DNA of 64,000 nucleotides from NCBI GenBank assembly GCA_024654535.1, contig JANLHL010000016.1:224626-288625 (forward strand). The letters are read 5' to 3'. Positions 28,743 through 40,680 of the stretch are shown in pieces. The position numbers and the translations under genes are program-made. Below the pieces are notes generated by a model. The model saw nothing but the letters and a program-made list of their open reading frames with translations. It searched no databases and was not told the origin of the DNA. Within the stretch, counting starts at the first letter, position 1; each line of letters begins with the position of its first letter. Source of the stretch: Candidatus Roizmanbacteria bacterium (lineage in GTDB: Bacteria; Patescibacteriota; Microgenomatia; UBA1406).

Positions 28743-29762
28743 TTAAAAATTTAAAATTGGTTTTATGATGCCTGCTGCGACAAGCGCATTTAATAAGTTG
28801 AGAATACCAAAAAATATCACTATTATTCCAGCTGTTTTAGTAAAAACACTAGACTGTGCTTTTTTATGAACTGTTAAAGAGCTGAAACTAAGTAACAGCA
28901 GTACTGGTAACGTACCCAGTGCAAAGGTTAGCATTATCCACGCCCCTGTCCAAAAGCTTCCAACACTTAGAGCGTACACTTGCATAGACTGTGTGAATCC
29001 ACACGGCAAAAAAAACGTTGCAGCACCTATCACTATTGGCATAAAGGTATGCTGGACACTTTTTAAACCATGTATTTTTTTGCCAAAAAAAAGTGGAATT
29101 GTCGGTTGCAACTTTTTCGACCAAGAGAATATATCTAGTAAATTAAGCCCTAATATGAGAAGCGTAAACGCAACAATAATGTTCAATATAAAAGTTGCTG
29201 TAATACCTAATTGAAACCTCGCTCCTAAGGCACCAATCACTCCACCAAGTAGAAAGAATGAGATGAGTCTTCCTACATGAAAAAGGAGTTGAGGCCGTAT
29301 TCGTTCCCCTCCTTTTGCATAATTTGCAGATAGTGATAAAACCAAACCACCTACCACTGCCATGCATGTAGAAACTGAAGCTATTACACCAATCAGAAAA
29401 GCCGTCGTAAAGTTAACGGTTGAAGAGGTAATCACATTTACTATTCCAAGCTTTTGTACAAGAATATACCCTCCAATAAATAACCCAGCAAATAATAATG
29501 CATAAGTGAAATCTGACCATTTAATTTCAGTTTTTTGTTTTTCAAGTGACAGTGAGTATCCGTGTGGTTTTAAAACATTGTCAAGCTCATTCATGATATC
29601 AATCACCGTTTTATTTTCAAAATCCCCTACTACCTGTATGGTGCGTTCTGTCAAAGACGCCGTTGCCTCTGATATATATGGAATATCTTTTAACTCACTC
29701 TCGGTTAATAATATACATGCATTACAATGCATTCCTTTTATATGAAACGTAAGTTTTTTCAT
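28743..29762 (-). CDS. HMA-domain + DsbD_2/TauE-like membrane protein
   Basis: N-terminal FHIKGMHCNACILLTE (MxCxxC) followed by about 7 TM helices. Abuts copA and the cupredoxin gene with 0-2 nt gaps. Confidence 0.6.
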   Translation of the reverse strand: MKKLTFHIKGMHCNACILLTESELKDIPYISEATASLTERTIQVVGDFENKTVIDIMNELDNVLKPHGYSLSLEKQKTEIKWSDFTYALLFAGLFIGGYILVQKLGIVNVITSSTVNFTTAFLIGVIASVSTCMAVVGGLVLSLSANYAKGGERIRPQLLFHVGRLISFFLLGGVIGALGARFQLGITATFILNIIVAFTLLILGLNLLDIFSWSKKLQPTIPLFFGKKIHGLKSVQHTFMPIVIGAATFFLPCGFTQSMQVYALSVGSFWTGAWIMLTFALGTLPVLLLLSFSSLTVHKKAQSSVFTKTAGIIVIFFGILNLLNALVAAGIIKPILNF

Positions 29763-29764
29763 TG

Positions 29765-32044
29765 TTATAAGTTAATAGTTTTGAGCCGTAATGAATTTGC
29801 AACAACTGAAACACTGGAGAAAGCCATGGCAAAACCCGCAAATACAGGATTTAGGAGCCATCCAAATAGTGGATAAAACAAACCAGCGGCTAGCGGAATA
29901 CCAACAATATTGTAAATAAATGCCCAAAACAAGTTCTGCTTTATACCACGCATCGTGAGCTTAGATAAGTGCACCGCCTTGACGACCTTTGAGATATCGC
30001 CATGCAAAAGCGTGATTCCTGCTGTTTCTATAGCAACGTCTGTGCCAGTCCCCATAGCTATCCCTACATCTGCCTGTGCTAAAGCAGGCGCATCATTTAT
30101 GCCATCTCCTGCCATGGCAACAACTGCTCCCATACTTTGTAGCTCTCTTACTTTTTTTAATTTATCACTCGGTAACGCATTCGCCACCACCTCTTTAATT
30201 CCTGCCTCATGCGCAATAAACTGGGCTGTATTATTATTATCTCCTGTAAGCATCACTACTTTTATACCAAGCTTATTGAGATCATAAACTGCCTTCTTTG
30301 CTTCGGGTTTAATAGTGTCCGCAACTAAAATATAACCCAAAACCTTTTTTTGATTGGCAATAATAATAGGTGTTTTTCCCAGTAAAGTATGTGCGTTTAT
30401 TTTTTTAGAATCGAACTGCAATTTTAAATCTTTTATAAGGAGACTGTTACCCACAAAATAACGAATATCTGCAACCGTACCTTTCAAACCCTTTCCTTTT
30501 ATAACCTCAAATCCCTCTACATGCGTGGTTTCGATTTTTCTCTCTTTTGCATAATGAGAAATTGCATACGCTATAGGATGCTCAGATTTGCTTTCAAGAG
30601 AAAACACGATGGATAGTAATTTTTTATCGCTCATATCTGACATGTTTTCAATATGCACAAGCTCTGGTTTACCTCTGGTAATTGTTCCTGTCTTATCAAC
30701 GACTATGACACTAGCTTTGTGCAACGTTTCTAGTGCAGAGGCGTCTTTTATTAAAATTCCTTCTGTTGCACCTTTGCCTACCCCAACAATAATCGCGGTA
30801 GGAGTAGCCAGTCCAAGCGCACAAGGACAAGCTATGACTAATACACCCACAAACGAAGTTAACCCGTAAGAAAGTGCCGTTGAAAAACCAAGGAATGATG
30901 TGCCTACCAAGAGCCATGTGCCAAGCGTAACGAACGCTAATACCAAAACTACAGGCACAAAAACGCTAGAAATAGAGTCTGCTAAGCTCTGAATTGGTGC
31001 ACGAGTACCTTGAGCTTCTTCAACCATTCTAATTATCTGTGAGAGCAGTGTCTCTGATCCAATTTTAGTTGCTTTAAAGATAAAATGACCCGTTGTATTA
31101 ATAGTACCTGCAACAACAGTGTCTTCCTTTTTTTTCTCAACAGGCATAGATTCCCCTGTTACTAAAGATTCGTCAACATAGGAAGCGCCTTCTACAACTA
31201 TTCCATCAACAGGAATGCAAGATCCAGGCTTTACCACAATCATATCGCCATGAACCAGTTCGCCTATTGCTACTTCTTTCTCAGCCCCGTTTCTGACAAC
31301 GAGTGCCGTTTTTGCTCGAAGATTGAGCAACTTACTTATAGCATCGGCTGTTTTTTCCTTTGCCTTAATCTCTAGGTATTTGCCAAGTGTAATAAAAGTT
31401 ATGACTATTATAGTGACATCGTAGTAGGTAGATCCAATAGTTATGTACTGCTTGACCACTTCTTCAAACGCCGTAACAACAAAGCTATACAGGAATGCAA
31501 CTGACGTACCAATACCTATGAGCGTATCCATATTTGCTTTTCCATATCGTAAAAATCTATATAAACCTTTCAGATAGGGCTTGCCAACAACAAAAAGCAT
31601 GTATGTGGCGAAAAGCGGTAAAAGGTGATGGAAAAACTCCATTGTTACTTTCGACTGTTCTGGAACAATATGCATACTGGCCAAAACATCCCATCCCATA
31701 ACAAATACACTAAACAGTGCAAGCGGTACTGAAATAAGTACTTTATCTCTCAAATCTGCAATGTGGCTTTTCTTATCCTTTTTCGACTGGCTCATATGGG
31801 AGTTATTATCAGAAGGCAACGCGTTCTCTTCTGGTGGAATAACGAGAGAGTAGCCAAGAGGCGCTATAACATCTGACATTTTTCTCGGACTTACTATAGA
31901 TGGGTCAAAATCTATCTTCACCTTTTCTGTCGCATAGTTCACGTCTAGTTTGTTAACACCATCAACTTTTCTTAACGTCTTTTGAATAATAGACGAACAA
32001 GAAGCACAATGCATACCGTTTACTTCAAACGTCTGTGTCTTCAT
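29765..32044 (-). CDS. copA: Copper-translocating P1B-type ATPase
   Basis: HMA motif GMHCASCS, TGESMP, CPC motif (IACPCALGLATP), DKTGT, GDGINDAP. Confidence 0.95.
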   Translation of the reverse strand: MKTQTFEVNGMHCASCSSIIQKTLRKVDGVNKLDVNYATEKVKIDFDPSIVSPRKMSDVIAPLGYSLVIPPEENALPSDNNSHMSQSKKDKKSHIADLRDKVLISVPLALFSVFVMGWDVLASMHIVPEQSKVTMEFFHHLLPLFATYMLFVVGKPYLKGLYRFLRYGKANMDTLIGIGTSVAFLYSFVVTAFEEVVKQYITIGSTYYDVTIIVITFITLGKYLEIKAKEKTADAISKLLNLRAKTALVVRNGAEKEVAIGELVHGDMIVVKPGSCIPVDGIVVEGASYVDESLVTGESMPVEKKKEDTVVAGTINTTGHFIFKATKIGSETLLSQIIRMVEEAQGTRAPIQSLADSISSVFVPVVLVLAFVTLGTWLLVGTSFLGFSTALSYGLTSFVGVLVIACPCALGLATPTAIIVGVGKGATEGILIKDASALETLHKASVIVVDKTGTITRGKPELVHIENMSDMSDKKLLSIVFSLESKSEHPIAYAISHYAKERKIETTHVEGFEVIKGKGLKGTVADIRYFVGNSLLIKDLKLQFDSKKINAHTLLGKTPIIIANQKKVLGYILVADTIKPEAKKAVYDLNKLGIKVVMLTGDNNNTAQFIAHEAGIKEVVANALPSDKLKKVRELQSMGAVVAMAGDGINDAPALAQADVGIAMGTGTDVAIETAGITLLHGDISKVVKAVHLSKLTMRGIKQNLFWAFIYNIVGIPLAAGLFYPLFGWLLNPVFAGFAMAFSSVSVVANSLRLKTINL

Positions 32045-32320
32045 CTATTTTCTTTTTAATTTGTAGACTTTAAGAATCTCTTGTTTTGCCTTATCTATTT
32101 GACCTGCATGCACCTGTTTTAAAATACAACCGCCTAAGTGATTTTCCAATAATAGGTCCTCAACATTAGAAAGTCCTTGCTTCACTGCTGATGTTTGAGT
32201 GATGACGTCTATACAATAGGTATCGTTAACAACCATATTCTCAAGCGCAGCTATCTGACCTTTTAAAATTTTAAACCTCTGTATAATTTTCTTCTTCGTT
32301 ATATCTTCCATGTATTTCAT
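32045..32320 (-). CDS. csoR: CsoR-family metal-sensing repressor
   Basis: RFKILKGQIAALENMV...YCIDVITQTSAV...ENHLGGCI fits the C-H-C ligand pattern. The start was chosen as ATG 32320, 6 nt after the -10 box. Confidence 0.8.
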   Translation of the reverse strand: MKYMEDITKKKIIQRFKILKGQIAALENMVVNDTYCIDVITQTSAVKQGLSNVEDLLLENHLGGCILKQVHAGQIDKAKQEILKVYKLKRK

Positions 32321-32326
32321 ATACAC

Positions 32327-32376: not shown

Positions 32377-33045
32377 TTACTGGTTAGCGATAGCTTGTGA
32401 AAAAAGCTGTTTGATTAGTGCGAACGCCCTCTCTACTTGCTTCTCGGGCAACACAATAGTTATTTCCGTATACGTAGATACTACTTCGGTTATCGCAATT
32501 GTATTGAGTGCAAGTACTTTCAAAATCATATAGTACACACCGGGAGCATCAAGTATATCAACATGAAATCGTACTGTTATAGATGACAAATTACCAACTC
32601 TCATTATTACATCAGACGGCGAAAATAACTCATCTAAAATAGGCTTATTTTGTTTGGCAGTAATAATGGTTGTTTCAAAAACTCCTTGAGTAATAGTAAT
32701 AAATTCTCTGTTGTCATTGCTGCATTTTTCGAATAATTCTCCCCTCGCCTGGGCAACTTTTTTTGAATTTTTCAGTGTAAGTTCAATTAAACTTGATCGA
32801 ACAATTAAATCTGGAGATTGTGTCAATATTGAACTCAACGCAGAAGTGCGTACTTCATTTAGATCTAACCGTTTGAGTGCCATGACTATAGAACCCAACT
32901 CAACACGCTTCATCGTATTTTCTTCTACTTCGTGACGTATTTCTCGTGCATATGCAGAATGGTTTACTATTCCCCTTTTGAGAAGTTCACCTACATATGG
33001 TGACCGAATGACTATCGCCTGGACTACCTGTGGCACTGTTATCAT
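32377..33045 (-). CDS. ACT-domain protein, divergent from the lysW operon
   Basis: C-terminal ACT-like beta-alpha-beta-beta-alpha-beta region (ITVRFHVDILDAPGVYYMILKVLALNTIAITEVVSTYTEITIVL). The N-terminal domain is unknown. Confidence 0.4.
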   Translation of the reverse strand: MITVPQVVQAIVIRSPYVGELLKRGIVNHSAYAREIRHEVEENTMKRVELGSIVMALKRLDLNEVRTSALSSILTQSPDLIVRSSLIELTLKNSKKVAQARGELFEKCSNDNREFITITQGVFETTIITAKQNKPILDELFSPSDVIMRVGNLSSITVRFHVDILDAPGVYYMILKVLALNTIAITEVVSTYTEITIVLPEKQVERAFALIKQLFSQAIANQ

Positions 33046-33094
33046 GTTAAAATTTTAACATTTTATTCAGAAAAATACAATTTTACTGTTTTTT

Positions 33095-33123
33095 TTGACT
33101 TGCCTGTTCGTACCCTTTACACT
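33095..33123 (+). promoter_or_regulatory. Candidate promoter of the lysW operon
   Basis: TTGACT (33095-33100)-N17-TACACT (33118-33123), with a 28-nt leader to ATG 33152. Confidence 0.45.
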
Positions 33124-33151
33124 CCACCTATTATTAGTTCATAAAAGACAT

Positions 33152-33325
33152 ATGAACACAAAATGCCCAGTATGCGACGGAGAAGTTACCGTAGAGCCAG
33201 GTACTATTGAAAGCGAAATTATACAGTGCCCAGACTGCTCAGCACGTTTAGTAGTTGAGAAAATTGAGGGTTCACACGTGTCAGTATCTGAAGCGCCAAA
33301 AGTTGAAGAAGATTGGGGCGAGTAA
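33152..33325 (+). CDS. lysW: Amino-group carrier protein LysW/ArgW
   Basis: 57 aa: MNTKCPVCDGEV...QCPDCSARL zinc ribbon and the acidic C-terminus APKVEEDWGE (EDWGE hallmark). The track ORF's 19-codon N-terminal extension was rejected. Confidence 0.85.
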   Translation: MNTKCPVCDGEVTVEPGTIESEIIQCPDCSARLVVEKIEGSHVSVSEAPKVEEDWGE

Positions 33326-34177
33326 ATGATTACCATAGGATTACTTCACTCTACTATTCGTGGAGACGAAAAACTTATTTTAGAGGCAGCAAAAAAGAGA
33401 AATGTTACCGTTAAGCTGATAGACATACGGCGCTCAATATACTGCGAAGAAAATCCATTGAATCATATAGATGTGGCTCTCGAACGCTCTGTCTCGACGG
33501 TGAAAGGTATGTATGCAGCATATTATTATGAAAGTAAAAATATTCCAGTCGTTAATTCGACTGCTGTCGCTGCCATCTGTGAAGATAAATTTCTTACATC
33601 GTTAGCACTTATGAAGGCACGTGTTCCCACCATTCCCTTTGGAATGGCTTTTTCAGTGGTAGAGCTGGAATCTTTAATAGCGTCTATCGGTGGGTACCCC
33701 GTTGTCATAAAACCACCTGAAGGCTCATGGGGCAGACTTTTGGCAAAAATTAACGACAAGGATGCACTTGAAGCTGTCATAGAACATAAAGATGTTCTTG
33801 GAACTCCAAGCCACAAAGCGTTTTATGTACAAAAGTACATTCAGAAAAAACAAGGCCGTGACATTCGTGCATTTGTTATAGATGGACATACAATTTGTGC
33901 TATATACAGACATTCTCCACACTGGATTACCAATACTGCGCGGGGCGGTGTAGCAAGCAATTGTACTGTGGATAGCGAGCTTGCAACCATCTGCAAAAAT
34001 GCTTCGATAGCGGTTGATGGTGGAATACTTGCTATGGATGTTGTTGAAACAAAAGACGGCTACATAATAAATGAAATCAATCACACCATGGAATTTAAAA
34101 ATTCTGAGATGCCGACAAAGACAAGTATTTCAGGTTATATTGTAGATTATTGTCTACAAATAGCACAGACCCAATGA
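33326..34177 (+). CDS. lysX: LysX-type ATP-grasp ligase (RimK family; substrate--LysW ligase)
   Basis: 283 aa, starting directly after the lysW stop. ATP-grasp blocks: GYPVVIKPPEGSWGR, RAFVIDG, MDVVETKDGYIINEINHTMEF. Confidence 0.8.
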   Translation: MITIGLLHSTIRGDEKLILEAAKKRNVTVKLIDIRRSIYCEENPLNHIDVALERSVSTVKGMYAAYYYESKNIPVVNSTAVAAICEDKFLTSLALMKARVPTIPFGMAFSVVELESLIASIGGYPVVIKPPEGSWGRLLAKINDKDALEAVIEHKDVLGTPSHKAFYVQKYIQKKQGRDIRAFVIDGHTICAIYRHSPHWITNTARGGVASNCTVDSELATICKNASIAVDGGILAMDVVETKDGYIINEINHTMEFKNSEMPTKTSISGYIVDYCLQIAQTQ

Positions 34178-35223
34178 AAAAAATATCTGTCGCAATTTTA
34201 GGAGGATCTGGATACGCAGGAGGTGAGCTCATACGCTTACTTTTAAACCATCCGAACGTATCACTCGAAGCGGTAACATCACGCGCATATAAGGGAAAAT
34301 TTGTATACAGCGCTCACCCAAATTTGCGTGGACGGACACGGCTCCAATTCATAGACCCACATGAACTTTCTAAATATGATCTTCTTTTTGTGGCACTTCC
34401 CAACGGTGTTTCTATGAACACGATGAGCGACTTAATGAAGAAGGCTTCCAAGATTATTGATCTTGGTGCAGATTTTCGCTTAAACAGTGCTCAGGCATTT
34501 ACCGATTGGTATCATATGCCACACACTGCGCCAAAACTTATGAAGGAGTTTATATATGGTGTTATTGAACTCCATAGATCGGAAATTGCAAAGAGTAACT
34601 ACGTAGCTTGCGGTGGTTGCGAAGCAACCGTAAGCATACTTTCACTCTATCCACTCATCAAACATAGTCTTATCGAGACTAAAATTATTATAGATGCCAA
34701 GATGAGCAGTTCACAAGCAGGGCTTGTTCCTACGCTCTCATCGCATCATCCAGAACGCTCTGGAGTTGTGCGCTCGTACATGCCAACTGGCCACCGACAC
34801 ACGGCAGAAATAATAACAGAAATGACACCGTATACCAGCGAGCCGCTTGATGTAGCAATATCAGCAACGAGTCTCGACATGGTACGAGGTATCTTAGTTA
34901 CTATTCATACTACCCCACGCACAGGTGTTTCGGAAAAAGATATTTGGCGAGCGTATAGAGAAGAATACGAGAACGAACCATTTATCCGAATAGTAAAAGA
35001 ACGCAGTGGATTATACCGCTATCCAGAACCAAAAATTCTCGCTGGGACCAATTTTTGTGATATTGGTTTTGAGATGGATACTCGATCAAAAAGACTTGTT
35101 GTCATTGGCGCAATAGATAACCTTGTGAAAGGTACCGCAGGACAGGCAATGCAGGATATGAACTGTATGTTTGGGTTCGAAGAAACGACAGGATTAGAAT
35201 TTTTAGGGCTCCATCCTATTTAA
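34174..35223 (+). CDS. lysY: LysY/ArgC-type [carrier]-acyl-phosphate reductase
   Basis: MKKISVAILGGSGYAGGELIRLL Rossmann fold and a catalytic Cys context (YVACGGCEAT). ATGA overlap with lysX. Confidence 0.8.
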   Translation: MKKISVAILGGSGYAGGELIRLLLNHPNVSLEAVTSRAYKGKFVYSAHPNLRGRTRLQFIDPHELSKYDLLFVALPNGVSMNTMSDLMKKASKIIDLGADFRLNSAQAFTDWYHMPHTAPKLMKEFIYGVIELHRSEIAKSNYVACGGCEATVSILSLYPLIKHSLIETKIIIDAKMSSSQAGLVPTLSSHHPERSGVVRSYMPTGHRHTAEIITEMTPYTSEPLDVAISATSLDMVRGILVTIHTTPRTGVSEKDIWRAYREEYENEPFIRIVKERSGLYRYPEPKILAGTNFCDIGFEMDTRSKRLVVIGAIDNLVKGTAGQAMQDMNCMFGFEETTGLEFLGLHPI

Positions 35224-35225
35224 CA

Positions 35226-36446
35226 ATGACAAAAGAACACAACTTCAAGGGGGTCATAGACACAACGCTCCGTGATGGCCAACAATCACCTCTCATGTTC
35301 GATACCTTTACGTATCGATTCGGACTTGACGATAAAATAAAAATTGTTGACGGCTTATTAGCGCTCGGTGTACAAAATATTGAATTCTTTTCTCCGGTTG
35401 TCAGTGAAACTGAAGGCAAAGATTTTGCTGTACTGAGACAGAGAATAAAATCAAATAATCCCAATGTACAGCTTCTCGCTCACTGTCGCACACACCCAAC
35501 AGATATAGAAAAAGCTCTTAATGCGGGGTTTGATGGTCTAAATTTATACATGGGTGTTTCACAAGAAGCACAACACCATAGTCATGGGTTAGCCATATCG
35601 GACATTGCACAGCGAGTACGAGATACTATCGAACCTCTGCGAAGGGCTAACCCAAACTTATATATTCGATTCAGCGGTGAAGATTGCTTTCGGACTGAAT
35701 TGAAAGATATATACAAAGTCTACGATGGTGTTTCAGATTTGGTCAATACATTCGGTATGCCAGACACTGTTGGAATTGCAACACCAGAACTTGTACGCAA
35801 AAGAGTCAACGCCCTTAGGAAAAGATACCCTGATATAGCTTTGGAATGCCATTTTCACAATGACCGTGGATATTCCCTGATGAATGCCGTTACTGCAGTA
35901 TTGTGTGGGGCGTCATATATCGACACATCAGTTTGGGGCTTGGCTGAACGATCTGGAATAACGTCAGTAACCGGCTTACTGTTTAATCTTTTCCAAGAAG
36001 ATCCAACACTTTGTGATGGATACAATATTGAAGTATGTTATCCGCTGAATGCGTTAATGGCAACCATGCTCGGTATGCAGGTACCATACACTGAACCGGT
36101 ATCATTAACCAATCGCACACATACGGCAGGGGTCCATACAAAAGCTGTATTAAATAGCGCAGGAACGTATGAAGCGATGGACTTAGCTCGATTTGGGGTA
36201 ACAACAAACCAATTACTACTTGGACCACTAAGTGGCTGGAATCTCATTTACTACTACCTTCGAGAAATCAAAGGATATGAACTCAGTAAAGAAGAAGCTC
36301 AGCAAATCTCAAGTGATTTTAAGAACCAAGCGGGAAGAATTGACAGAAGTCGCAGTCCTGAATTGGTATTAATGGACGTCATTGCCCCTTATCAGTTATC
36401 GAAAATCCCTACGCAAGATATGACGGGAAGAATTGAAAATCTATGA
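35226..36446 (+). CDS. DRE-TIM metallolyase, homocitrate/2-isopropylmalate synthase family
   Basis: IDTTLRDGQQSP, ECHFHNDRGYSLMN and the TSVWGLAERSG catalytic/metal blocks. No LeuA-type regulatory domain. Confidence 0.7.
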   Translation: MTKEHNFKGVIDTTLRDGQQSPLMFDTFTYRFGLDDKIKIVDGLLALGVQNIEFFSPVVSETEGKDFAVLRQRIKSNNPNVQLLAHCRTHPTDIEKALNAGFDGLNLYMGVSQEAQHHSHGLAISDIAQRVRDTIEPLRRANPNLYIRFSGEDCFRTELKDIYKVYDGVSDLVNTFGMPDTVGIATPELVRKRVNALRKRYPDIALECHFHNDRGYSLMNAVTAVLCGASYIDTSVWGLAERSGITSVTGLLFNLFQEDPTLCDGYNIEVCYPLNALMATMLGMQVPYTEPVSLTNRTHTAGVHTKAVLNSAGTYEAMDLARFGVTTNQLLLGPLSGWNLIYYYLREIKGYELSKEEAQQISSDFKNQAGRIDRSRSPELVLMDVIAPYQLSKIPTQDMTGRIENL

Positions 36447-37243
36447 TCATAATTAAAATTGGCGGCGGCAAAGACATCCGATGGGACTATATTGCCAAAA
36501 ATTTAAAAACATTTATAAAAAAACATACCTGTGTAATCATTCACGGTGCCAGCACACTGAGGGATTCTATTGGTCAAAAGATGAATGTGCCGACACAGAC
36601 AGTAATATCCCCTTCTGGTATAAGCAGCGTTATCACCGACGAGAGAGCACTCGAAGTATTTCTTATGGCATACGCAGGCGTTGCAAATAAAACGATTGTT
36701 GCACAACTTCTAAAACACTCTATTCCTGCAATTGGCATGACTGGAGTGGATGGTATGCTGTGGACTGCTCGAGCAAAGCCAAATCTGTTTGTAAAAGAAG
36801 GGGAAAAAACACGATTAGTACGAAATAATCTTACCGGGAGAGTTGAGAAAGTAAACACAGTTCTCCTCAATATCTTACTTAAAGGTGGATACATACCAGT
36901 AATAACCGCACCTGCAATCACCGAGTCTGGAACGATAGTAAATACAGACAACGATTGGGCAACGGCTATAACCGCAGCTGCACTAAAGGCAACATCTATT
37001 ATCTATCTTTTTGAAGCACCAGGACTACTGAAGGACTTTAATGATCCTTCCAGTATTATTCCACGCATACGTAAAAATGAATTACAGAGTTTCTTACCGA
37101 ATGCACAAGGTAGAATGAAAAAAAAACTTATTGGAGCTATGGAAGCTCTAAACAGAGGGGTTGAACACATATATTTTGGTGACGGGCGGATAGAAAATCC
37201 ATTAGATAGTGCCATCTTGGGGAATGGCACCGTTATTGCGTAA
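36443..37243 (+). CDS. lysZ: LysZ/ArgB-type amino-acid kinase
   Basis: MIIIKIGGG and HGAS are AAK family motifs. ATGA overlap with the upstream gene. Confidence 0.8.
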   Translation: MIIIKIGGGKDIRWDYIAKNLKTFIKKHTCVIIHGASTLRDSIGQKMNVPTQTVISPSGISSVITDERALEVFLMAYAGVANKTIVAQLLKHSIPAIGMTGVDGMLWTARAKPNLFVKEGEKTRLVRNNLTGRVEKVNTVLLNILLKGGYIPVITAPAITESGTIVNTDNDWATAITAAALKATSIIYLFEAPGLLKDFNDPSSIIPRIRKNELQSFLPNAQGRMKKKLIGAMEALNRGVEHIYFGDGRIENPLDSAILGNGTVIA

Positions 37244-37247
37244 CCAC

Positions 37248-38453
37248 ATGAACTACAAAACAATACAAGATAATTTTATAGCACAAACATATCCAAATCG
37301 GGGTGTTACTTTTGTACGAGGAAAGGGTTCATATCTCTTTGATGAAAATGGAGAAAAATACATCGATATGCTCGGTGGTAGCTATGGTGTGGGAGTTTTA
37401 GGATATGGAATTGGTTCAATTACGAAGGCACTACAGTCCCAAATAAATACTCTTTTTGTGTTGCATTCGTCATTTTCAAATGACAAACGTTCGCTTGCAA
37501 GTTTCAAACTTATACAGAATGTATCGAAAGCTGGTTTCACCAATTTAAAACGTGTTTTTTGGTCTAATTCTGGTGCAGAAAGCATTGAGGCTGCACTCAA
37601 GTTTGCAATGCTGTATACAAAAAAGTATAGGCTCATTGCAGCAATAAATAGCTATCATGGCAAAACACTTGGAGCACTGTCGATAAATAACTCAGGCAAC
37701 GGTAAATATCAAACACCATTTAAAAACGTACTACTGCCGGTTGATTGGATACGCTTCGGGGATATCCATTCATTAGAACAGGTCATTTCAACACATCATG
37801 CAGCAGTCATTCTGGAGCCAATTCAGGGTGAAGGAGGTGTTATTACTCCCCCACCAGACTACTTCCCAAAAGTCTATACGTTATGCAAAAAATACAATGT
37901 GCCACTTATTATCGATGAAATTCAAACCGGTTTAGGCAGAACCGGTACTATGTACAATAGTCAACGATACATACAAAATGGCTTTACTTGCGATATGCTC
38001 TGCCTCGGAAAAGGCCTTGCCTATGGTATTCCTGTAGGAGCAACGGTTATTTCAGATCGCATAAACAGTGCCCTTTCAAAAGGTATTCATACCAGCACGT
38101 TTGGAGCAAATCCTCTTGCAATGACTGGAGTTTACGAAGTACTGTCGTACTTAGAGACTCATCCGCGTCTTGTGACAAACGCCACCGCAAAAGGCGCCTA
38201 TATTCGTAATAATCTTGAGACTCTCAAAAAAAGATATCCCACCATTACCGATATTTCTGGAACAGGCTTGATGATTGGCATTGGGCTTTCTATAGATCCG
38301 ATAATAGTACTTAAAAAACTACAAGAACAACACATTATAGCTGCACCGACCAGTACAAACCGCATTCGTTTCTTACCGGCGCTCACCATTCAAAAAAAAG
38401 ATATAGATAGTACACTTGATGCATTTTCAATAGTACTCAGTTCGTACAAATAA
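37248..38453 (+). CDS. lysJ: LysJ/ArgD-type class III PLP aminotransferase
   Basis: SGAESIEAALK and DEIQTGLGRTG, with a CLGKGL PLP-lysine context. Confidence 0.8.
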   Translation: MNYKTIQDNFIAQTYPNRGVTFVRGKGSYLFDENGEKYIDMLGGSYGVGVLGYGIGSITKALQSQINTLFVLHSSFSNDKRSLASFKLIQNVSKAGFTNLKRVFWSNSGAESIEAALKFAMLYTKKYRLIAAINSYHGKTLGALSINNSGNGKYQTPFKNVLLPVDWIRFGDIHSLEQVISTHHAAVILEPIQGEGGVITPPPDYFPKVYTLCKKYNVPLIIDEIQTGLGRTGTMYNSQRYIQNGFTCDMLCLGKGLAYGIPVGATVISDRINSALSKGIHTSTFGANPLAMTGVYEVLSYLETHPRLVTNATAKGAYIRNNLETLKKRYPTITDISGTGLMIGIGLSIDPIIVLKKLQEQHIIAAPTSTNRIRFLPALTIQKKDIDSTLDAFSIVLSSYK

Positions 38454-38454
38454 C

Positions 38455-39117
38455 ATGTGCCGATTTCTCATAGCAAAATCAAGAGAGAATTTTAAGCCTC
38501 AAGAAATACTCACATCTTTTTCTCGTATGGCTCAAAAGAGTCGCGCCTTTGATGGAGACCGACAAGAAGACGGTTGGGGTATGAGTTGGTGGGGTAACGG
38601 AACATGGGAACAGTATGTATCAATAAAACCAATATGGTACGACACACACATGTTCTCCTATGCGCCTCAAACAAAATATTTTGCAGTACATGCACGCAGC
38701 GCCTCGTTTACTAATCACAAAAATACAATTGCATATAATCAACCGTTTATCTATCAAAAGTATGCATTTGTTTTTAATGGACTTTTAAAGGGTGTTACAC
38801 TGCCCTACCCACTCGAAGGTACCATTGGTTCACAAAAAATATTCTCGCTACTGCGCACGTTTTTAAGTAAAATGCCGCCTAAAAAGGCGTTGGTAGAAAC
38901 AGTAAAGATCATAACTACGCACACACGCCATGTACAAGCGCTCAATATGGGTTTGTGTGATGGATCAAAAATATATGCCTATACACACTACTCCAAGTAT
39001 CCTCAGTATTACCATCTACAACATGCGTATGCCGGAAAAATACATATAGTATCTTCCGAGGCTATAGAACATTTTGATTTCTCTTTGTTACCGAAAGAGT
39101 CTGTATATGTTAGGTAA
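38455..39117 (+). CDS. Class II glutamine amidotransferase-like Ntn hydrolase (YafJ/EgtC type)
   Basis: MCRFLIAKS (Cys2 nucleophile), DGWGMSW, VHARSAS, YNQPF, FVFNG. Starts 1 nt after the lysJ stop. No synthase domain is attached. Confidence 0.65.
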   Translation: MCRFLIAKSRENFKPQEILTSFSRMAQKSRAFDGDRQEDGWGMSWWGNGTWEQYVSIKPIWYDTHMFSYAPQTKYFAVHARSASFTNHKNTIAYNQPFIYQKYAFVFNGLLKGVTLPYPLEGTIGSQKIFSLLRTFLSKMPPKKALVETVKIITTHTRHVQALNMGLCDGSKIYAYTHYSKYPQYYHLQHAYAGKIHIVSSEAIEHFDFSLLPKESVYVR

Positions 39118-39688
39118 AAAGAAGTTTTTTAATTTCCCCAAGCGTTCCTTGCTCTTTTGCTTTTAAAAAGGCAAGTGTCAACTCTCGGTCGCGATAATTA
39201 TCATCGAGGATGATCTTTAAATATTCATCGAATGTTACCATTTTGAGAGAGATTTTTTCACCACTATCAAGATTCTGAGGCTTCACAACGCGACACTTCT
39301 TGGCTATAAACGTAAAGATAGCCCAATCCATAACACTTGATGGTTGTACACTCATCCAGAATTGCCACGTATCAGACACCATACCTGCTTCTTCCAACAA
39401 CTCCCGCTTTGCAGCCTCCAAAGGGTTTTCTTCAAGGTCTAAACGTCCTCCGATGCTTCCTATAAATGGATCTATACCAGGCTGTTCTTGGTGAGTAATG
39501 ACAATTTTTTGATCATTGGTAATGGGTAACACATTGACCGTATCGACGCGCTTTATTTTCTCAAATATTGCCGTAGTACCATCAAACATTTTCTGCTCCC
39601 AATGGTATACATCAAGCATTTTTCCTTTGAAAACACGAGTAGCATGCGGAGGGATATTCAGTTTAGACCGCGCTCTGGTAATCTCCAT
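39110..39688 (-). CDS. NUDIX hydrolase
   Basis: Nudix box GGRLDLEENPLEAAKRELLEEAG. Start chosen at ATG 39688, 6 nt after TATAAT. Confidence 0.8.
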   Translation of the reverse strand: MEITRARSKLNIPPHATRVFKGKMLDVYHWEQKMFDGTTAIFEKIKRVDTVNVLPITNDQKIVITHQEQPGIDPFIGSIGGRLDLEENPLEAAKRELLEEAGMVSDTWQFWMSVQPSSVMDWAIFTFIAKKCRVVKPQNLDSGEKISLKMVTFDEYLKIILDDNYRDRELTLAFLKAKEQGTLGEIKKLLFT

Positions 39689-39712
39689 GTCGAAATTATA
39701 GCACAAAGGAAG

Positions 39713-40565: not shown

Positions 40566-40680
40566 GTCTCGGTTATTTGAGCGATCAGGAACCACATCTT
40601 CCCATTCCGAACAGAACCGTGAAACTGATCAGCGCCTACGATACTATCCTTCGGGATGGGACAATAAGTCATAGCCGGGG
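40566..40680 (+). rRNA. rrf: 5S ribosomal RNA
   Basis: CCCATTCCGAACAGAACCGTGAAACTGATCAGCGCCTACGATACT matches the universal loop C/helix III-II core (CCGAAC..GTGAAAC..AGCGCC). Helix I pairs CTCGGTTAT with ATAGCCGGG. A T7 run follows. Confidence 0.85.

What the first reader, a model, noticed from the sequence alone, without database searches (positions are those of the whole stretch)
33046..39117. LysW-type amino-group carrier protein operon ending in an Ntn (class-II amidotransferase-like) hydrolase where LysK is expected
Seen: seven co-directional genes are packed with 0-4 nt gaps or ATGA overlaps. The first encodes a 57-aa zinc-ribbon protein ending ...APKVEEDWGE, the hallmark tail of LysW/ArgW carrier proteins. 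Then follow a RimK/ATP-grasp LysX-like ligase, an ArgC/LysY-like reductase, a DRE-TIM homocitrate/isopropylmalate-synthase-family enzyme, an ArgB/LysZ-like kinase and an ArgD/LysJ-like aminotransferase. Established: in the Thermus/Sulfolobus/Thermococcus pathways the product is tethered to the gamma-carboxyl of the LysW C-terminal Glu. It is released by the M20 metallopeptidase LysK. Here no M20 gene is present. The terminal gene, which starts 1 nt after the lysJ stop, encodes a 220-aa stand-alone protein beginning MCRF with DGWG / HxRxAS / NxxPF / FNG blocks of YafJ/EgtC-type Ntn hydrolases. The chemistry of that family is gamma-glutamyl amide cleavage. Inference: an Ntn amidohydrolase may have replaced LysK, giving an undescribed variant of the carrier-protein pathway. 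Alternatively the operon makes a non-proteinogenic amino acid, as AmCP clusters in Streptomyces do. Homoaconitase, homoisocitrate dehydrogenase and the aminoadipate aminotransferase are not in the window, so the substrate (aminoadipate vs glutamate) is open. A full carrier-protein pathway would also be unexpected in what otherwise looks like a streamlined genome.
Basis: partly seen in the sequence, partly recalled or inferred. Interest (0 to 1): 0.72.

Follow-up and report, generated by a model that had tools for sequence, protein, structure and literature searches.

The report
Cysteine hydrolase replaces LysK in LysW pathway
A candidate-phylum bacterium carries a carrier-protein (LysW) amino-acid pathway whose usual metal-dependent release enzyme is missing. 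A conserved N-terminal-cysteine hydrolase sits in its place, and comparison of about 200 loci suggests this is a widespread, undescribed version of the pathway.

Summary
Window 33152-39117 (+) holds lysW, lysX, lysY, a homocitrate-synthase-like gene, lysZ, lysJ and a 220-aa Ntn (class-II amidotransferase-fold) protein, with gaps of 0-4 nt or ATGA overlaps. The genome is a Candidatus Roizmanbacteria MAG.

- The Ntn gene is fixed in LysW operons in about 80 loci from several phyla, in two different gene orders.
- In an unbiased metagenome sample of LysW loci, Ntn and true M20 LysK never co-occur (12 Ntn-only, 19 LysK-only, 0 both; p=4.5e-5).
- A LysX+Y+Z tree separates all Ntn-type clusters from all LysK-type clusters.
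- The model (pLDDT 96.5) best matches EgtC, a gamma-glutamyl amidohydrolase. It keeps Cys2, Arg81 and Asn108-Gly109 but has an invariant Gly where relatives have the Asp that binds the free alpha-amino group. That fits a peptide-bound C-terminal Glu.
- About 18% of Ntn-linked LysW genes (13/72) end in Gln instead of Glu, against 0/24 LysK-linked ones. A Gln terminus would need deamidation.

A divergent HTH-plus-tandem-ACT gene and a GTTAA-N4-TTAAC palindrome also belong to the system.

No biochemistry exists, and the cargo (lysine vs ornithine) in this genome remains open.

The parts
32377..33045 (-). Divergent 222-aa regulator candidate. It has an N-terminal four-helix domain (residues 4-58) and a tandem ACT domain resembling the aspartate-kinase beta subunit (residues 79-215).
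   Evidence: Pfam ACT_7 hit is weak. The AF2 model has pLDDT 88.7. Foldseek best hits are aspartate-kinase regulatory subunits 3ab4_B, 2zho and 2dt9, E about 3e-8, TM(target) 0.64-0.75. The gene is conserved divergently upstream of most Ntn-type clusters and was not detected in any LysK-type locus of the metagenome sample.
33046..33059 (.). 14-bp perfect palindrome GTTAAAATTTTAAC abutting the regulator's start codon; a candidate operator.
   Evidence: It is the only exact GTTAA-N4-TTAAC in the 64-kb window. The same motif sits at the same position in 21 of 45 independent loci exactly and in 38 of 45 with 2 or fewer mismatches. Background is 0.03% and 1.4% per 36-nt window.
33095..33123 (+). 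Promoter-like site TTGACT-17-TACACT upstream of lysW.
   Evidence: Consensus scan (not enriched by itself). An ...AAATTGAC element lies at the equivalent position in most related intergenic regions.
33152..33325 (+). lysW: 57-aa zinc-ribbon amino-group carrier protein ending EEDWGE.
   Evidence: PF21344, E 5e-10; NF041070 at 57 bits, below its cutoff. Two CxxC pairs and the EDWGE tail are read directly.
33326..34177 (+). lysX: RimK-type ATP-grasp ligase that loads the amino acid onto the LysW C-terminal gamma-carboxyl.
   Evidence: TIGR02144 LysX_arch at 286 bits, above the 275.6 cutoff; PF22626 plus PF08443.
34174..35223 (+). lysY: ArgC-family semialdehyde-forming reductase.
   Evidence: TIGR01850 at 380 bits, above the 233.6 cutoff. 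ATGA overlap with lysX.
35226..36446 (+). Homocitrate-synthase-like DRE-TIM enzyme.
   Evidence: PF00682 plus PF22617 HCS_D2. The best NCBIfam model is TIGR02146 at 221 bits, below its 413 cutoff. It is 55-67% identical to in-cluster orthologues that are followed by homoaconitase and HICDH genes.
36443..37243 (+). lysZ: [LysW]-aminoadipate/glutamate kinase.
   Evidence: NF010659 at 263 bits, above the 223 cutoff.
37248..38453 (+). lysJ: class-III aminotransferase.
   Evidence: PF00202, E 5e-86. LysJ and ArgD models score 270-336 bits, below their equivalog cutoffs.
38455..39117 (+). 220-aa stand-alone Cys-Ntn hydrolase (MCRF...). Proposed LysW gamma-glutamyl amidohydrolase, functionally replacing LysK.
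   Evidence: AF2 pLDDT 96.5. Best PDB fold match is EgtC 4zfl, E 1.7e-12, TM 0.77. Invariant C2, R81, N108-G109, G125. Fixed synteny with lysW operons. Mutually exclusive with LysK.

Best explanation
The operon encodes a LysW (amino-group carrier protein) pathway.

Steps that follow established LysW biochemistry:
1. LysX ligates the alpha-amino group of alpha-aminoadipate (or glutamate) to the gamma-carboxyl of the LysW C-terminal Glu.
2. LysZ phosphorylates the tethered substrate.
3. LysY reduces it to the semialdehyde.
4. LysJ transaminates it.

The inferred step: the terminal 220-aa protein releases the product. Removal of Met1 exposes Cys2 as the N-terminal nucleophile. Cys2 attacks the gamma-glutamyl isopeptide carbonyl, with Asn108-Gly109 forming the oxyanion hole. 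Arg81 holds the free alpha-carboxylate of the terminal Glu. Lysine (or ornithine) leaves, and hydrolysis of the thioester regenerates LysW-Glu. The enzyme therefore does the job of M20 LysK with unrelated chemistry.

Because the same reaction would deamidate a C-terminal Gln, lineages with this enzyme can encode LysW ending in Gln and mature it to Glu.

The divergent HTH-ACT protein probably senses an amino acid (lysine is the guess) and binds the GTTAA-N4-TTAAC palindrome to control both transcription units.

Shown here: gene content, synteny, mutual exclusivity with LysK, fold, and the residue pattern.
Inferred: the substrate, the chemistry on LysW, Gln maturation, and the regulator's ligand and DNA site.
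For: 1. Synteny. Most of the 84 genome-derived loci chosen through the Ntn protein (about 45 with the full gene set; more are cut by contig ends) show lysW-X-Y-(HCS)-(homoaconitase/HICDH)-Z-J-Ntn, with Ntn directly after lysJ. They come from Microgenomates, Aminicenantes/Acidobacteriota, Fischerbacteria and others. A second Ntn clade, 30-36% identical, always sits between lysY and lysZ. That clade has about 3000 members, many from marine Gammaproteobacteria MAGs.

2. Exclusivity. LysW loci were sampled from metagenomes by the LysW tail only. Among loci with lysX, Y, Z and J, 12 have Ntn only, 19 have LysK only, 8 have neither and 0 have both; Fisher p=4.5e-5. The LysK queries are true equivalogs. 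Only 1 of 84 genome loci has any M20 nearby, and it is a generic DapE/ArgE type.

3. Phylogeny. A neighbour-joining tree of concatenated LysX+Y+Z (71 taxa) splits all Ntn-type clusters from all LysK-type and unclassified clusters.

4. Fold. The AF2 model has pLDDT 96.5. The top PDB matches are EgtC, a stand-alone gamma-glutamyl amidohydrolase, followed by other class-II amidotransferase domains.

5. Active site. Cys2, Arg81 (HARSA) and Asn108-Gly109 are invariant in 66 of 66 sequences across both clades. The position where EgtC (TVDS) and 3mdn (TDSE) carry Asp is an invariant Gly125 in the motif I-G-[AS]-[QE]-K. In class-II amidotransferases that Asp binds the free alpha-amino group of glutamine (GlmS D123, PurF D127; from general knowledge). 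Its loss fits a glutamyl residue whose alpha-amine is in a peptide bond.

6. LysW-Gln. 10 of 58 genome-derived and 3 of 14 metagenome Ntn-linked LysW end ...EDWGQ, as does the abundant gammaproteobacterial type (L205). None of 24 LysK-linked LysW does; p=0.034.

7. No synthase-domain partner is fused to the Ntn protein or conserved next to it.
Against: - There is no biochemical or genetic test.
- The rest of this genome could not be searched, so a distant LysK cannot be excluded.
- One Ntn-type locus (L017) has a generic M20 gene next to the operon.
- Four Ntn homologues (L074, L079, L082, L084) lie away from any lys gene within 10 kb.
- The Gln-terminus statistic is modest (p about 0.03), and related loci are not independent samples.
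- The residue roles are transferred from alignments at about 20% identity.
- Homoaconitase and HICDH are missing from the 64-kb window, so what is loaded on LysW in this organism is not established.
Confidence: 0.7

Rival explanations
1. The Ntn protein is only a maturation enzyme that deamidates LysW-Gln to LysW-Glu, or an editing enzyme that strips mis-loaded amino acids. Product release is done by another hydrolase encoded elsewhere.
For: LysW-Gln termini occur only in Ntn-type clusters. The rest of the genomes could not be searched.
Against: About 82% of Ntn-linked LysW, including the one in this window, already end in Glu, yet the Ntn gene is retained in nearly every complete cluster. An accessory enzyme should co-exist with LysK, but the two never co-occur: 0 of 38 loci carrying either gene. 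LysK-type clusters carry LysK in the operon in 19 of 27 cases, whereas Ntn-type clusters show no other conserved hydrolase.
Confidence: 0.12
2. The Ntn protein is a true glutamine amidotransferase subunit. It hydrolyses free glutamine to supply ammonia to a pathway enzyme.
For: It is assigned to Pfam GATase_4 just above threshold and is annotated 'class II glutamine amidotransferase' in databases. The catalytic Cys, Arg and Asn-Gly are retained.
Against: No synthase or acceptor domain is fused or conserved beside it. A transaminase (LysJ) already provides the amino group. The Asp that binds the alpha-amino group of free glutamine is replaced by an invariant Gly. The closest solved structure is a hydrolase, not a transferase. 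This reading does not explain the exclusivity with LysK.
Confidence: 0.05
3. The operon in this window is a decaying or repurposed remnant. For example, it may make a non-proteinogenic amino acid on LysW, with the Ntn enzyme acting on a product other than lysine or ornithine.
For: Homoaconitase and HICDH are absent from the 64-kb window. CPR genomes usually lack amino-acid biosynthesis. Variant clusters L059 and L066 carry ThrC-like and threonine-transaldolase-like genes instead of HCS.
Against: All seven ORFs are intact and tightly coupled. The same HCS-containing arrangement without homoaconitase/HICDH recurs in several genomes, such as L005, L006, L018, L060 and L160. Orthologous clusters with 55-67% identical HCS carry the full aminoadipate module. 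Release of a different LysW-bound product would still be the same gamma-glutamyl cleavage.
Confidence: 0.13

Closest known systems
LysW/AmCP-mediated lysine (alpha-aminoadipate) and ornithine biosynthesis of Thermus, Sulfolobus and Thermococcus (LysW, LysX, LysZ, LysY, LysJ, LysK)
   Same: The carrier protein has the same zinc ribbon and EDWGE tail. LysX, LysZ, LysY and LysJ are homologous, with LysX, LysZ and ArgC-family models above their curated cutoffs. The operon logic is the same, and relatives carry the HCS, homoaconitase and HICDH module.
   Different: The M20 metallohydrolase LysK is absent and is never found together with the Ntn gene. A Cys-Ntn hydrolase occupies its place. Some carriers end in Gln rather than Glu. 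A dedicated HTH-ACT regulator and operator accompany the cluster. The LysX/Y/Z proteins form a separate clade from the LysK-type systems.
EgtC, the ergothioneine-pathway Ntn amidohydrolase (PDB 4ZFJ/4ZFK/4ZFL)
   Same: It is the best structural match (E 1.7e-12, TM 0.77). Both are stand-alone class-II amidotransferase folds with an N-terminal Cys nucleophile, a conserved Arg and an Asn-Gly oxyanion hole. EgtC's chemistry is cleavage of a gamma-glutamyl amide.
   Different: Identity is only about 20%. The EgtC equivalog model scores 49.8 bits against a 218 cutoff. The Asp that binds the free alpha-amino group of the glutamyl moiety is Gly here. The genomic context is lysW rather than egtABDE. 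The proposed substrate is a protein C-terminus.
LysK, the [LysW]-lysine hydrolase (M20, ArgE/DapE family; NF003367)
   Same: The proposed reaction is the same: hydrolysis of LysW-gamma-Lys or LysW-gamma-Orn. The operon position is also the same, after lysJ, in the clade that includes this window.
   Different: There is no sequence or fold relationship. LysK is a metal-dependent M20 peptidase, whereas this protein is a cysteine Ntn hydrolase. This is a candidate non-homologous replacement.
Aspartate kinase regulatory (beta) subunits with tandem ACT domains
   Same: The C-terminal 140 residues or so of the divergent gene product match these subunits (TM to target 0.64-0.75). In aspartate kinase they bind lysine or threonine.
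   Different: The protein has no kinase domain. It carries an extra N-terminal four-helix domain and is paired with a conserved DNA palindrome, which suggests a transcription factor rather than an enzyme subunit.

Membership tests
LysW/AmCP carrier-protein pathway | Small zinc-ribbon carrier with a C-terminal EDWGE tail | tested here: met
   PF21344, E 5e-10. Two CxxC pairs and ...EEDWGE were read from the sequence. The NCBIfam LysW models score below their cutoffs.
LysW/AmCP carrier-protein pathway | LysX ATP-grasp ligase and LysZ kinase specific for LysW conjugates | tested here: met
   TIGR02144 at 286 bits (cutoff 275.6). NF010659 at 263 bits (cutoff 223).
LysW/AmCP carrier-protein pathway | LysY reductase and LysJ aminotransferase | tested here: inconclusive
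   The ArgC model is above its cutoff at 380 bits. The LysJ and ArgD models score 270-336 bits, below their equivalog or subfamily cutoffs. The family assignment is clear, but specificity was not shown.
LysW/AmCP carrier-protein pathway | Release by M20 LysK ([LysW]-lysine hydrolase) | tested here: not met
   The window has no M20 hit. There were 0 LysK hits in 14 metagenome Ntn-type loci (one weak opposite-strand generic M20 hit in L170), and a single generic M20 in 84 genome loci. The rest of the genome was not searchable.
LysW/AmCP carrier-protein pathway | Upstream aminoadipate module (HCS, homoaconitase, HICDH, aminoadipate aminotransferase) | tested here: inconclusive
   An HCS-like gene is present, at 221 bits against a 413 cutoff. 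Homoaconitase and HICDH are absent from the window but present inside 12-13 orthologous clusters.
Class-II (Ntn) glutamine amidotransferase domain | N-terminal Cys nucleophile directly after Met1 | tested here: met
   MCRF...; Cys2 is invariant in 66 of 66 sequences.
Class-II (Ntn) glutamine amidotransferase domain | Ntn alpha-beta-beta-alpha fold | tested here: met
   AF2 pLDDT 96.5. Foldseek hits include EgtC, 3mdn, 1te5, GlmS and PurF, at E 1e-12 to 1e-5.
Class-II (Ntn) glutamine amidotransferase domain | Arg that binds the substrate alpha-carboxylate, and an Asn-Gly oxyanion hole | tested here: met
   R81 and N108-G109 are invariant and align to the corresponding EgtC and 3mdn motifs.
Class-II (Ntn) glutamine amidotransferase domain | Asp that binds the free alpha-amino group of glutamine (T-D-S-E motif) | tested here: not met
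   It is replaced by an invariant Gly125 in I-G-[AS]-[QE]-K. EgtC has TVDS and 3mdn has TDSE at the aligned position.
Class-II (Ntn) glutamine amidotransferase domain | Fused or adjacent synthase (acceptor) domain | tested here: not met
   The protein is a stand-alone 205-235 aa chain in nearly all family members examined. No conserved synthase neighbour was seen.
EgtC (ergothioneine amidohydrolase, TIGR03442) | Equivalog-level sequence match and egt gene context | tested here: not met
   49.8 bits against a 218.65 cutoff. The context is lysW, not egt.
Aspartate-kinase-beta-like ACT regulator (divergent gene) | Tandem ACT fold | tested here: met
   Foldseek hits to aspartate-kinase regulatory subunits, E about 3e-8 and TM(target) up to 0.75.
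Aspartate-kinase-beta-like ACT regulator (divergent gene) | DNA binding to the GTTAA-N4-TTAAC palindrome, and an amino-acid ligand | not testable with these tools
   Only the positional conservation of the palindrome and the helical N-terminal domain are available.

The most novel reading that the evidence does not exclude
[quoted passage not shown] In it, a cysteine Ntn hydrolase has taken over product release from the M20 enzyme LysK. The same enzyme also allows a genome-encoded 'pro-carrier', LysW-Gln, which must be deamidated before first use. The system comes with its own HTH-ACT regulator and operator. It would also give some CPR bacteria a complete lysine pathway.
Probability: 0.6. Interest if true: 0.78.

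Novelty: new variant of a known kind. Interest (0 to 1): 0.7.

Why it matters
The LysW pathway is a textbook case for the shared origin of lysine and arginine biosynthesis. Its last step has only ever been assigned to the ArgE-like enzyme LysK.

- A non-homologous cysteine hydrolase at that step would fill a gap that automated annotation now reports as a missing LysK in thousands of MAGs.
- It would change auxotrophy predictions for CPR bacteria, Aminicenantes and marine Gammaproteobacteria.
- It would add a protein-C-terminus-directed member to the class-II amidotransferase superfamily.
- It would explain why some carrier proteins are encoded with a terminal Gln.
- It would give an enzyme that cleaves gamma-glutamyl isopeptides on a protein tail, and a compact regulator-operator pair.

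Tried and rejected
- Co-folding the Ntn protein with LysW.
- Foldseek against AFDB50 was unavailable.
- Exact look-up of the window's Ntn protein in the contig index found nothing, so the remainder of the 356-kb contig could not be read. LysK, homoaconitase and HICDH elsewhere in this genome remain unchecked.
- A lysine riboswitch or other known RNA element as regulator: the Rfam gathering scan found only two tRNAs and a 5S rRNA in the window.
- Literature searches on LysW combined with amidotransferase, Ntn, CPR, metagenome and Gammaproteobacteria, plus the GapMind 2026 preprint, returned no description of an alternative to LysK. The primary EgtC structure paper is not in the library, so the residue roles for class-II amidotransferases rest on general knowledge.
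- The M20 gene in L017 as a hidden LysK was rejected. It scores 72 bits against the 363-bit LysK cutoff and best fits generic DapE/ArgE.
- The four Ntn homologues without lys neighbours (L074, L079, L082, L084) gave no alternative functional context, and one of them is truncated.

Full report
**1. What is in the sequence**

The stretch holds seven co-directional ORFs (sequence):

| Gene | Coordinates | Junction with previous gene |
|---|---|---|
| lysW (57 aa, ends ...APKVEEDWGE) | 33152-33325 | - |
| lysX | 33326-34177 | gap 0 |
| lysY | 34174-35223 | ATGA overlap |
| HCS-like | 35226-36446 | gap 2 |
| lysZ | 36443-37243 | ATGA overlap |
| lysJ | 37248-38453 | gap 4 |
| Ntn (220 aa, begins MCRF) | 38455-39117 | gap 1 |

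Profile searches confirm each assignment:
- LysW: PF21344.
- LysX: TIGR02144, 286 bits, above cutoff.
- LysY: ArgC TIGR01850, 380 bits.
- HCS-like: HMGL-like plus HCS_D2. The best model is homocitrate synthase TIGR02146, but below its cutoff.
- LysZ: NF010659 [LysW]-aminoadipate kinase, 263 bits, above cutoff.
- LysJ: Aminotran_3.
- Ntn: GATase_4 just above threshold. The EgtC model TIGR03442 scores 49.8 bits against a 218-bit cutoff.

The window has no M20 peptidase, homoaconitase or homoisocitrate dehydrogenase (tblastn). The organism is a Candidatus Roizmanbacteria MAG. Proteins 100% identical to the Ntn and ACT products lie on a 356-kb NCBI contig. The neighbouring genes are housekeeping.

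**2. The Ntn protein**

The family is tightly conserved. Cys2, Arg3, His79, Arg81, Ser82, Pro97, Phe107-Asn108-Gly109, Gly122, Gly125, Asn164, Tyr185 and Ser201 are invariant in 66 sequences spanning two clades. Lys128 is present in 64 of 66.

The AlphaFold model is confident (pLDDT 96.5). Its best solved-structure matches are the EgtC entries 4ZFL, 4ZFJ and 4ZFK (E 1.7e-12, TM 0.77, about 20% identity). Next come other stand-alone class-II amidotransferase-fold proteins and the glutaminase domains of GlmS and PurF. EgtC is a hydrolase that removes a gamma-glutamyl group.

HMMER alignments to EgtC and 3mdn place the Ntn motif T-I-G-S-Q-K opposite T-V-D-S and T-D-S-E. From general knowledge of class-II amidotransferases (GlmS D123, PurF D127), this Asp binds the free alpha-ammonium of glutamine. 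Here it is an invariant Gly, while the carboxylate-binding Arg and the oxyanion Asn-Gly are kept. That pattern is what one expects if the glutamyl moiety has a free alpha-carboxylate but an acylated alpha-amine. The C-terminal Glu of LysW fits that description. This last step is inference.

**3. Comparative genomics**

A scan of one genome per species returned 80 loci encoding relatives. Mapping the window's proteins onto them shows lysW-X-Y-(HCS)-Z-J-Ntn in most loci long enough to judge. Ntn lies directly after lysJ in every one. The taxa are Microgenomates (Roizman-, Levy-, Gottesman-, Davies-, Shapiro- and Pacebacteria), Aminicenantes/Acidobacteriota, Fischerbacteria and a few others. Independent look-ups agree.

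In 12-13 loci, homoaconitase large and small subunits and a homoisocitrate/isopropylmalate dehydrogenase sit between HCS and lysZ. The orthologous cluster can therefore encode the whole alpha-aminoadipate route.

Only one locus, L017, has an M20 gene nearby. It is a generic DapE/ArgE type, scoring 72 bits on the LysK model against a 363-bit cutoff.

**4. An unbiased test**

I scanned metagenome contigs for the LysW tail alone (AP-x3-EDWG[E/Q]-stop). Of the 120 loci returned, 119 are genuine LysW genes. True LysK sequences recovered from these loci reach the [LysW]-lysine hydrolase equivalog cutoff, and I used them as queries.

Among loci with lysX, Y, Z and J present:

| Class | Loci |
|---|---|
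| LysK only | 19 |
| Ntn only | 12 |
| neither (mostly truncated) | 8 |
| both | 0 |

Fisher p=4.5e-5. Over all loci the counts are 24 LysK and 14 Ntn, and the two never occur together.

Twelve of the Ntn loci show a different gene order, lysW-X-Y-Ntn-Z-J, with an Ntn protein only 30-36% identical to the window's. That clade has about 3000 members at 90% clustering. Many come from marine Gammaproteobacteria MAGs, where it forms a tight six-gene operon.

A neighbour-joining tree of concatenated LysX+Y+Z (71 taxa, 873 columns) places all Ntn-type clusters on one side of the midpoint root. All LysK-type and unclassified clusters fall on the other side. The Ntn-type system is thus one lineage of the carrier-protein pathway, not a scattering of accidents.

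**5. LysW ending in Gln**

Ten of 58 Ntn-linked LysW in the genome set and 3 of 14 in the metagenome set end ...EDWGQ instead of ...EDWGE. So does the abundant gammaproteobacterial type. None of the 24 LysK-linked carriers does (p=0.034).

LysX is an ATP-grasp ligase and needs a carboxylate, so a terminal Gln would have to be deamidated first. Class-II amidotransferase chemistry does exactly that. This independently ties the Ntn enzyme to the gamma-position of the LysW terminus. The window's own LysW ends in Glu.

**6. Regulator and operator**

The divergent 222-aa gene (32377-33045) is conserved upstream of most Ntn-type clusters. It was not detected in any LysK-type locus in the sample. Its model (pLDDT 88.7) has a four-helix N-terminal domain and a tandem ACT domain. 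The best matches are aspartate-kinase regulatory subunits.

A 14-bp palindrome GTTAA-N4-TTAAC abuts its start codon. In the window it is GTTAAAATTTTAAC at 33046-33059, the only exact copy in 64 kb. It is exact in 21 of 45 loci and within two mismatches in 38 of 45, against backgrounds of 0.03% and 1.4%. I read this pair as an amino-acid-sensing transcription factor and its operator. The ligand and the binding are inferred.

**7. Most likely mechanism**

LysX loads aminoadipate (or glutamate) on LysW. LysZ, LysY and LysJ convert the side chain. The Ntn enzyme, using Cys2 exposed by Met removal, cleaves the gamma-glutamyl isopeptide through a thioester intermediate, releasing lysine (or ornithine) and regenerating LysW-Glu. 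I put this at about 0.7.

The rivals are weaker:
- A pure maturation or editing enzyme should co-exist with LysK, and it should not be universally kept where LysW already ends in Glu.
- A free-glutamine amidotransferase lacks a partner, lacks the alpha-amino-binding Asp, and is redundant with LysJ.
- A decaying or repurposed operon is not supported by the intact, recurrent arrangement, although the cargo in this genome is unproven.

**8. What is known**

The library holds no report of an Ntn or cysteine hydrolase in LysW clusters. A 2025 study of the Thermus pathway and the GapMind 2026 preprint still list only LysK. Databases call the protein 'class II glutamine amidotransferase' or 'hypothetical'.

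I class the finding as a new variant of a known kind: the known carrier-protein pathway with a non-homologous release enzyme, optional Gln-terminated carriers and its own regulator.

**9. Limits**

- No experiment supports the proposal.
- Residue roles rest on low-identity alignments.
- Four homologues lie away from lys genes.
- Related loci are not statistically independent.

Noticed in passing
window 32377-33059 (gene on - strand; palindrome 33046-33059): A divergent HTH-plus-tandem-ACT gene resembling the aspartate-kinase beta subunit, with a GTTAA-N4-TTAAC palindrome abutting its start codon. Both are conserved with Ntn-type LysW clusters across phyla and were not detected at LysK-type clusters.
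   Followed up: yes
L010, L017, L029, L031, L037, L038, L054, L055, L057, L070, L099, L157, L158; L205 7981-8145: LysW carrier genes that end in ...EDWGQ (Gln) instead of ...EDWGE. They were seen only in clusters that carry the Ntn gene, including the abundant marine gammaproteobacterial type.
   Followed up: yes
L098, L099, L101, L124, L138, L145, L152, L157, L158, L170, L185, L200; L205/L206 7981-12575: A second, much larger Ntn clade (about 3000 cluster representatives) placed between lysY and lysZ. It includes six-gene operons in marine Gammaproteobacteria MAGs with no HCS. The cargo, ornithine/arginine or lysine, is unknown.
   Followed up: partly
L059 3555-6303; L066 3830-8031: Variant Microgenomates clusters without HCS. 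Between lysY and lysZ they carry a ThrC-like PLP enzyme with an N-terminal zinc ribbon and a threonine-transaldolase/SHMT-like enzyme; L066 also has an acetolactate-synthase-like enzyme. This may be a carrier-protein route to a beta-hydroxy diamino acid.
   Followed up: no
L175 4610-7265; L183 3485-6109: Gene fusions in LysK-type clusters. L175 has a 617-aa LysZ-LysK fusion followed by a transketolase-N-like gene, which resembles DADH-type secondary-metabolite clusters. L183 has an 874-aa LysJ-LysK fusion.
   Followed up: no
L017 3463-5611: The only M20 gene seen beside an Ntn-type cluster. It is a generic DapE/ArgE-family deacylase preceded by an unannotated 350-aa protein, and it lies between the regulator and lysW.
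   Followed up: partly
window 40568-40680 (+): A lone 5S rRNA gene. No 16S or 23S rRNA reached Rfam's gathering threshold anywhere in the 64-kb window.
   Followed up: no
window 28743-32326 (-): A copper-handling block directly upstream of the regulator: an HMA-DsbD_2 membrane protein, a 759-aa P-type Cu ATPase and a CsoR-type metal-sensing repressor.
   Followed up: no
window 39110-39117: The Ntn gene's 3' end overlaps by 8 nt the 3' end of a convergent NUDIX hydrolase gene (39110-39706, - strand). This leaves no room for a terminator between them.
   Followed up: no
L074 10001-10666; L079 6936-7706; L082 6562-7206; L084 2232-2756: Ntn homologues from Caldilineaceae, Anaerolineae and Peregrinibacteria MAGs and one mislabelled MAG (L084, titled 'Clostridia') that have no lys genes within 10 kb. 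The L084 copy is truncated. Whether their genomes hold a dispersed LysW pathway is unknown.
   Followed up: partly
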